Shown one piece after another: positions 13,351-13,546 of a stretch of DNA of 64,000 bases. The DNA is from Octopus vulgaris (taxonomy: Eukaryota), in assembly GCA_951406725.2 (NCBI GenBank), contig OX597815.1:122822001-122886000 (forward strand). Reading direction: 5' to 3'. Numbering within the stretch: the first letter of the stretch is position 1; every line of letters starts with the position of its first letter. The notes below the pieces were generated by a model. That model worked only from the letters and a program-made list of their open reading frames with translations. It was not told where the DNA came from and did no database searches. The translations under genes and the position numbers were made by a program.

Positions 13351-13385
13351 CTCCCAGGCACACGTACATACATACATACATACAA

Positions 13386-13546
13386 TCAGCCGAAATTGCG
13401 AAGATAATCTGGTACTTGACTGAGGAAAGAAAACTTCGAATGACCCGTCCTTGTTTTCTTTGTATAGTCTATCTGGATGTTTTGTTCCATTTTTGTATCA
13501 CCTAACTGTCTGGATGTTTTGCGTTCTTGTCCCATTTTGTATTTTT
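13386..13546 (+). mobile_element. 5'-truncated family 2 Penelope-like terminus
   Basis: Matches 8552-8712. Starts at tcagccgaaa directly after (CATA)n. Confidence 0.85.

What the first reader, a model, noticed from the sequence alone, without database searches (positions are those of the whole stretch)
13381..13430. Independent family 2 insertions begin just downstream of the predicted cleavage site
Seen: copies at 13386 (+, after (CATA)n) and 54482 (-, after (TA)n) both start at tcagccGAAA. That is ~8-10 nt 3' of the AUC site in the longer copy (AUC|tctagTATAAtcagcc), with the junction at TATA microhomology. The family 1-like copy at 61575 also begins 3' of its expected site. Inference: self-cleavage sets the 5' end of the RNA that is reverse transcribed, which would be indirect in vivo support for activity. 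The 54-kb copy has Px' = gatccgg, which predicts ccggatc upstream in its full-length subfamily.
Basis: partly seen in the sequence, partly recalled or inferred. Interest (0 to 1): 0.7.

Follow-up and report, generated by a model that had tools for sequence, protein, structure and literature searches.

The report
Short retroelement copies near ribozyme cut
Two separate short copies of a jumping-gene tail begin 9 to 11 bases after the predicted cut site of an oddly wired self-cutting RNA, a start that recurs at a few percent of copies and likely marks RNA cut in the animal, although most copies run through the site and an AT-rich patch there could give the same pattern.

Summary
Observation mostly right; inference plausible but not shown. 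Copies C (13384/5, +) and D (54483/2, -) start at +9/+10 and +10/+11 after the predicted AUC| cut (8541|8542) of a non-circularly permuted hammerhead whose stem II 5' strand lies upstream of the cut. They differ at subfamily sites and flanks, so they are probably separate insertions. In contigs of four public runs, D's exact (TA)n-TCAGCC junction carries roughly 1-8% of the family's depth, but roughly 46-75% or more of it runs through the cut. So cleavage could define the 5' end of only a minority of templates. Confound: the +6 TATA is the only TA word of 4 nt or more between -81 and the 3' end. Neither copy starts at +1, and exact overlap with the target is only 1-2 nt. The letters predicted for ccggatc exist genome-wide at exactly the partner positions, but unphased. 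The 61575 family 1 copy starts about +40 and adds nothing. No genome was held, so the decisive histogram could not be made. The principle is known from R2 ribozymes; for Penelope-like hammerheads one published test was negative.

The parts
13384..13545 (+). Copy C: short family 2 copy starting at +9/+10 after the predicted cut, inside a (CATA)n/(TA)n microsatellite; keeps GAAA block, Px' aatctgg (13406-13412), stem I 3' strand and CTGAGGA (13420-13426); lacks the cut site
54330..54483 (-). Copy D: short family 2 copy starting at +10/+11 directly after (TA)n; Px' gatccgg (54462-54456), CTGAGGA (54448-54442)
8365..8714 (+). Copy A: long arm, head-to-head with B; reads through the ribozyme
7770..8364 (-). 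Copy B: longer arm of the same head-to-head insertion; predicted cut 7904|7903; stem I TCGAG/CTCGA
8520..8592 (+). Predicted permuted hammerhead in A: stem II 5' strand 8520-8525, Px 8526-8532, stem III 8536-8540, C17 8541, cut, stem I 8542-8546, linker TATAA 8547-8551, stem II 3' strand 8552-8557, GAAA 8558-8561, stem III 8561-8565, Px' 8572-8578, stem I 8581-8585, CTGANGA 8586-8592
   Evidence: pairs 6/6, 7/7, 5/5, 4/5 in A; 5/6, 7/7, 5/5, 5/5 in B; variant letters
8547..8551 (+). AT-rich linker (+6..+10) where both short copies join their target; TATAA here, ATTAA in a large subfamily
7424..7558 (+). Family 1 copy with the same block order (GUC| at 7454)
61588..61651 (+). Family 1-like fragment starting about +40 from its cut; not evidence for the finding

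Best explanation
Copies C and D are short insertions of the 3' tail of a likely Penelope-like retroelement, and they were likely copied from the roughly 170-nt RNA piece left 3' of the predicted hammerhead cut, losing the first 8-10 bases when the cDNA end was joined to an AT-rich microsatellite target. Steps. (1) The tail folds into a permuted hammerhead (predicted; pairing and covarying letters shown). (2) Some transcripts self-cleave at AUC| (inferred, untested). (3) The element's RT primes at a nicked (TA)n/(CATA)n target and copies from the 3' tail (inferred from Penelope biology and the head-to-head A/B arms). (4) On cut RNA the cDNA ends near +1; second-strand priming on the nearest A/T bases of the linker, or later microsatellite slippage, leaves a junction at +6..+11 (inferred, by analogy with R2). 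(5) Most templates are uncut and give read-through copies such as A and B (shown in the window; roughly 46-75% or more by depth).
For: Both short copies start at +9..+11 and differ at subfamily sites and flanks. Neither uses the 7 TA words of 3 nt at +29..+168 that RT passes first. D's exact junction carries 1.0-6.5% of depth by slope, or 1.9-8.0% by adjacent bin, in 4 of 4 runs; by my rough estimate that is tens to low hundreds of loci, not D alone. Contigs that extend 5' from D's start read TCAAG-ATTAA in the majority of 3 organisms' runs (table 7), so D's parent may have had no TATA at all, which weakens a homology-only account. A structural RT stall would be expected at about +45, the 3' edge of the first helix, not +10 (inference). 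Fold support: the Px positions listed as variable, 8528 (A>G) and 8532 (T>C), are the partners of 8576 (T>C) and 8572 (A>G); stem I 8544 A/G goes with 8583 T/C. The same strand order is readable at the 3' end of a sequence-unrelated Naiad consensus. Precedent: R2 cleavage at the 5' end gives variable, microhomology-primed junctions (PMC3774820).
Against: No copy seen starts at +1. One search lists no pile-up of ends (table 6: none), and no loose end at 8541-8552 on the 5' side is among its 24 shown of 1116. Depth shows no step at the cut (X1 1.90M to 1.84M; X2, X3, X4 fall rather than rise). TATA at +6 is the only TA word of 4 nt or more between -81 and the 3' end of A, so homology alone could focus junctions here. 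I have no measured junction rate at control positions. In an anole Poseidon element, hammerhead mutants did not change insertion and no RNA-seq reads began or ended at the cut (PMC11167929). Only 3 insertion events lie in the window. Contig depth is reference-biased and, by the tool's own note, no copy number.
Confidence: 0.52

Rival explanations
1. Microhomology only: the RNA is not cut, and cDNAs of any length join the (TA)n target at the first good A/T patch, which is the linker; later slippage blurs the junction to +9..+11.
For: The +6 TATA is the only TA word of 4 nt or more from -81 to the 3' end. Both junctions abut microsatellites. No +1 start was seen. Most depth reads through. PMC11167929 found uncut RNA the dominant substrate in vitro.
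Against: Exact overlap is only 1-2 nt. D-like read-through contigs mostly carry ATTAA, not TATAA. The junction share of 1-8% looks above my assumed uniform background of at most about 0.3-1% (an estimate, not a measurement).
Confidence: 0.3
2. A short master copy beginning at the linker was itself amplified (SINE-like or inside a larger repeat), so the recurrent junction is inherited rather than re-made.
For: The same (TA)n-TCAGCC junction recurs in all 4 runs, and depth cannot tell shared ancestry from independent events.
Against: C and D are 87.6% alike, of different Px' type, with different flanks and 3' ends; at least two masters would be needed.
Confidence: 0.1
3. An HDV-like ribozyme begins exactly at TCAGCC (+11) and cuts there.
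For: TCAGCCG could pair with TGACTGA, followed by GG, a hairpin and CGAAU; both junctions fit a start at +11 (sequence, by eye).
Against: Judged by eye against the HDV consensus recalled from memory: a C-A mismatch in that helix in 4 of 4 copies, no P3, and no 5' partner for the would-be P2. Covarying letters fit the hammerhead stems instead.
Confidence: 0.03
4. Chance coincidence of two 5' truncations.
For: Only 3 events in the window; the zone was chosen after seeing the data.
Against: p about 0.001-0.005 under uniform ends; recurrence in public runs.
Confidence: 0.05

Closest known systems
R2 retrotransposon HDV-like ribozyme setting 5' junctions (Eickbush et al. 2013, PMC3774820; abstract and part 1 of 2 of the Discussion read)
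   Same: Self-cleavage position is read out in genomic 5' junctions; microhomology primes the second strand and makes junctions variable.
   Different: HDV-like fold at the 5' end of a full element, activity shown in vitro. Here a hammerhead in the 3' tail, a minority of copies, and no assay.
Type-SGC non-circularly permuted hammerheads (Eckert et al. 2023, PMC10085705; parts 3 and 5 of 8 and term passages read, supplements not read)
   Same: Block order S, G, C; short linker from stem I to stem II; an extra helix; CUGANGA, GAAA and NUH core.
   Different: There the stem II strand directly follows CUGANGA; here it lies 5' of the cut site. Those RNAs come from metatranscriptomes, not animal retroelements.
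Hammerheads of Penelope-like elements (Cervera and de la Pena 2014, PMC4209133, passages; Frangieh et al. 2024, PMC11167929, passages)
   Same: Hammerhead in the terminal repeat, mostly as solo truncated copies; head-to-head inverted arms; AT-rich target.
   Different: Those are type I minimal or dimeric folds; the one biochemical test found cleavage dispensable and no RNA-seq ends at the site.
Naiad elements (Craig et al. 2021, PMC8557442; passages and supplement look-ups)
   Same: (TA)n target and inverted 5'-truncated arm. The 3' end of the record preceding Naiad_Ovul (Naiad_Obim by file order) shows the same helix order (GACACC/GGTGTC, CGGAT/ATCCG, ATGGT/ACCAT, GUA|, CTGCCC/GGGCAG, CTGATGA), although the paper reports no canonical hammerhead.
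   Different: Family 2 is not found in those consensus sequences by motif look-up (2 hits for cagccgaaa, both in unrelated contexts); its autonomous partner is unidentified.

Membership tests
Hammerhead ribozyme | CUGANGA, GAAA and NUH core | tested here: met
   CTGAGGA in C and D, CTGAAGA in A, TTGAGGA in B (1 change); GAAA in 4 of 4; AUC in 2 of 2 long copies
Hammerhead ribozyme | Stems I and III flank the core | tested here: met
   stem I variant letters
Hammerhead ribozyme | Site-specific self-cleavage | not testable with these tools
   needs in vitro transcription; junction evidence is indirect
Type-SGC hammerhead | Block order S-G-C | tested here: met
   definition
Type-SGC hammerhead | Stem II strand directly 3' of CUGANGA (intact block C) | tested here: not met
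   the partner of YCAGCC is RGCTGG at -21..-16; bases after the core (AAG/TAG/TAA...) do not pair with it
Penelope-like element (Naiad) | RT plus GIY-YIG ORF | tested here: inconclusive
   no such ORF in B's 595 nt or among the window's open frames of 120 aa or more, judged by eye; the copies are truncated
Penelope-like element (Naiad) | Inverted 5'-truncated arm, (TA)n target | tested here: met
   A/B join head-to-head at 8364|8365 with both 3' ends facing TA-rich DNA
Ribozyme-defined 5' end (R2-like) | Most 5' junctions map to the cut | tested here: not met
   roughly 46-75% or more of depth reads through
Ribozyme-defined 5' end (R2-like) | Local excess of junctions at the cut over control sites | tested here: inconclusive
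   1-8% at one junction; no measured control position
HDV-like ribozyme | P1, P1.1, P2, P3, P4 double pseudoknot | tested here: not met
   by eye: no P2 partner, no P3; Rfam scan shows no ribozyme among 150 of 157 rows listed

The most novel reading that the evidence does not exclude
A hammerhead opened inside its own core (stem II strand supplied from upstream of the cut, blocks in S-G-C order) is catalytically active in an animal, and its 3' cleavage product is itself retrotransposed by a Penelope/Naiad-type enzyme, leaving a class of short insertions that records ribozyme activity in the germ line.
Probability: 0.45. Interest if true: 0.75.

Novelty: new variant of a known kind. Interest (0 to 1): 0.5.

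Why it matters
What hammerheads do for Penelope-like elements is an open question: the one biochemical study found cleavage dispensable and no RNA ends at the site. A junction peak at the cut would be a genomic record of in vivo cleavage for a fold not found in my literature searches, and would explain why Naiads seemed to lack hammerheads. The test is cheap: a 5'-end histogram split by linker type, plus one in vitro assay.

Tried and rejected
No whole genome is held, so no true histogram could be made. No family 2 copies were found in public collections: metagenome scans gave 0 loci and 2 loci, the viral scan 5, the genome scan 120; none of these 127 loci matched the reference copies over 26 nt or more, so all were dropped as chance. 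The run search listed no RNA holder on record. Rfam: no ribozyme among the 150 of 157 rows shown. ARAGORN: 0 genes. One search used a mis-indexed structure string and is discarded; pairs were recounted. Single-sequence folding recovers Px and a few pairs but cannot show pseudoknots. The loose S-G-C descriptor gave 28 hits in the window, of which I kept 3 (7454, 8541, 7904). Phasing of Px with Px' failed: the loose-end consensus behind D read ccagatt in 3 of 4 runs and was unreadable in X2, but those contigs need not carry gatccgg. Look-ups of earlier findings near this place and by sequence gave nothing. HDV-like fold, RT stall at structure and a split by another insertion were considered and rejected (see rivals).

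Full report
Setting. The window is microsatellite-rich eukaryotic DNA. Earlier notes call the host a probable cephalopod; I did not test that. No whole genome is held. BLAST within the window finds four family 2 arms: A (+, 8365-8714), B (-, 8364-7770), C (+, about 13384-13545) and D (-, about 54483-54330). A and B join head-to-head with both 3' ends outward and share linker and Px type, so I count them as one insertion. That is the inverted 5'-truncated arm described for Penelope-like elements, and Naiads prefer (TA)n targets (PMC8557442, passages). No RT or endonuclease frame is evident. The mobiliser is therefore inferred, not shown.

The fold. In A the order is: stem II 5' strand (GGCTGG), Px (CCAGATT), stem III and AUC, cut 8541|8542, stem I, linker TATAA, stem II 3' strand, GAAA, stem III, Px', stem I 3' strand, CTGANGA. 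Pairs formed: 6/6, 7/7, 5/5, 4/5 in A and 5/6, 7/7, 5/5, 5/5 in B. This is the S-G-C block order of Eckert et al., except that stem II's 5' strand does not follow CUGANGA. Earlier notes said Naiad tails share this layout. I checked one record by eye: the 3' end of the record before Naiad_Ovul in the supplement has the same helices in the same order with unrelated sequence. Family 1 at 7454 has the same block order. I found no paper describing this wiring or junction evidence for it (searches; open-access library only).

The observation. C matches A from +9 and D from +10; the T of TCAGCC is +11. C and D are 87.6% alike with different Px' and flanks, and their upstream halves are nowhere in the window. 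Under uniform ends, 2 of 3 events in a 12-nt zone has p about 0.001-0.005 (post hoc). The TATA homology is loose: D overlaps by one A, and C has TACA for TATA. The 61575 fragment aligns to family 1 only from 61588, about +40 (50 of 66 identical), and is no support.

Genome-wide proxy, read-through. I laid contigs of 4 of the 24 listed public runs (3 coded organisms) on A (10454, 9615, 4784, 8118 contigs) and on D with 10 nt of TA flank (1726, 1535, 425, 1422). The tool warns that depth is no copy number; I use only ratios within a run, and they are rough. Depth does not rise after the cut: 8533-8544 against 8545-8556 is 1.90M/1.84M, 1.42M/0.91M, 235k/191k and 2.38M/1.92M. Depth at 8509-8532 is 0.77, 0.86, 1.21 and 0.93 of the plateau on D. 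The strictest bound, which assumes every 31-mer is its own contig, gives 0.46, 0.58, 0.75 and 0.60. About half or more of the copies therefore read through. Table 6 lists no pile-up in either call.

Genome-wide proxy, the junction. Depth continues into D's TA flank at 1.3%, 6.5%, 1.0% and 2.8% of the in-element slope (2.3%, 8.0%, 1.9%, 4.7% by adjacent bin). X1 and X2 are the same organism yet differ five-fold, probably from library bias against AT-rich DNA (inference). Assuming a single-locus depth of about 30-50 in X1 and X2, this is tens to low hundreds of loci. My assumed uniform background for two positions with a direct TA flank is at most about 0.3-1%, so enrichment lies between none and about twenty-fold, with no measured control. 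Loose ends at 54480-54484 appear in the lists of all 4 runs (24 of 112 rows shown). Some are TA or mixed flanks (3 contigs each), others look like variant full-length copies, so they are weak evidence. The main loose end at 54483 (70, 19, 26, 78 contigs) is read-through sequence with an ATTAA linker.

The confound. In A, TATA at +6 is the only TA word of 4 nt or more between -81 and the 3' end; 7 words of 3 nt lie 3' of it. An uncut RNA joined by homology would also favour this spot. Against that: exact overlap is 1-2 nt, and a large subfamily has ATTAA (8547A 29-75%, 8548T 6-68%), which is also the majority among D-like read-through contigs. A stall at structure would be expected near +45, because by +11 all helices have lost their 3' partners to the cDNA (inference).

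Px. The Px positions listed as variable are 8528 (G, 5-21%) and 8532 (C, 9-25%). They are the partners of 8576 (C, 41-53%) and 8572 (G, 63-75%) (40 of 69 rows shown). They are unphased and their shares do not match. Reference bias, tolerated mismatches, or more frequent truncation of the gatccgg type could each explain that. The loose-end consensus behind D read ccagatt in 3 of 4 runs, which tells mildly against strict linkage.

Comparison. Cleavage setting 5' junctions is established for R2's HDV-like ribozyme, with microhomology priming (PMC3774820). For Penelope-like hammerheads it was proposed via circular RNA (PMC4209133). In an anole element it was dispensable in vitro and left no RNA-seq ends (PMC11167929). 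Term look-ups in a 2026 preprint on animal retrozymes and in PMC7229834 showed no junction analysis. Several earlier AI notes claim starts exactly at the cut for other families; I could not test those, and family 2 here starts 9-11 nt later.

Verdict. Real, recurrent, modest. Cleavage of a minority of templates is my best reading (0.52); homology alone is a strong rival (0.30). New variant of a known kind; interest 0.5.

Noticed in passing
window 8547-8548: A large subfamily has linker ATTAA with stem I TCAAG/CTTGA instead of TATAA; a natural control for the microhomology question.
   Followed up: partly
window 7424-7510 (+): Family 1 copy has a 7-bp extra helix (TGTTTCA/TGAAACA) and two possible stem II partners: GAAG upstream of the cut, or AGG right after the core. 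It may be intermediate between type SGC and the core-opened form.
   Followed up: no
window 8447-8459 and 8611-8623: A 13-nt direct repeat (CCGTCCTTGTTTT) brackets the ribozyme 164 nt apart inside the element.
   Followed up: no
window 7748-7756 and 54309-54317: The same 9-mer (TATAGCGGC, - strand) follows the 3' ends of both B and D and occurs nowhere else in the window; it may be a tail remnant or a shared neighbour.
   Followed up: no
window about 13203-13349 (-) and 59116-59260: A SINE-like repeat lies head-to-head with copy C across the (CATA)n run; a second copy is 75% alike.
   Followed up: partly
window 6649-7107, 5125-5898, 60237-60619: Long inverted repeats: 227-nt arms 100% complementary with a 5-nt gap, 314-nt arms and 178-nt arms; MITE-like or head-to-head insertions.
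   Followed up: no
window 12403-52029: A dispersed SINE-like family of at least 10 copies (D19/D20).
   Followed up: no
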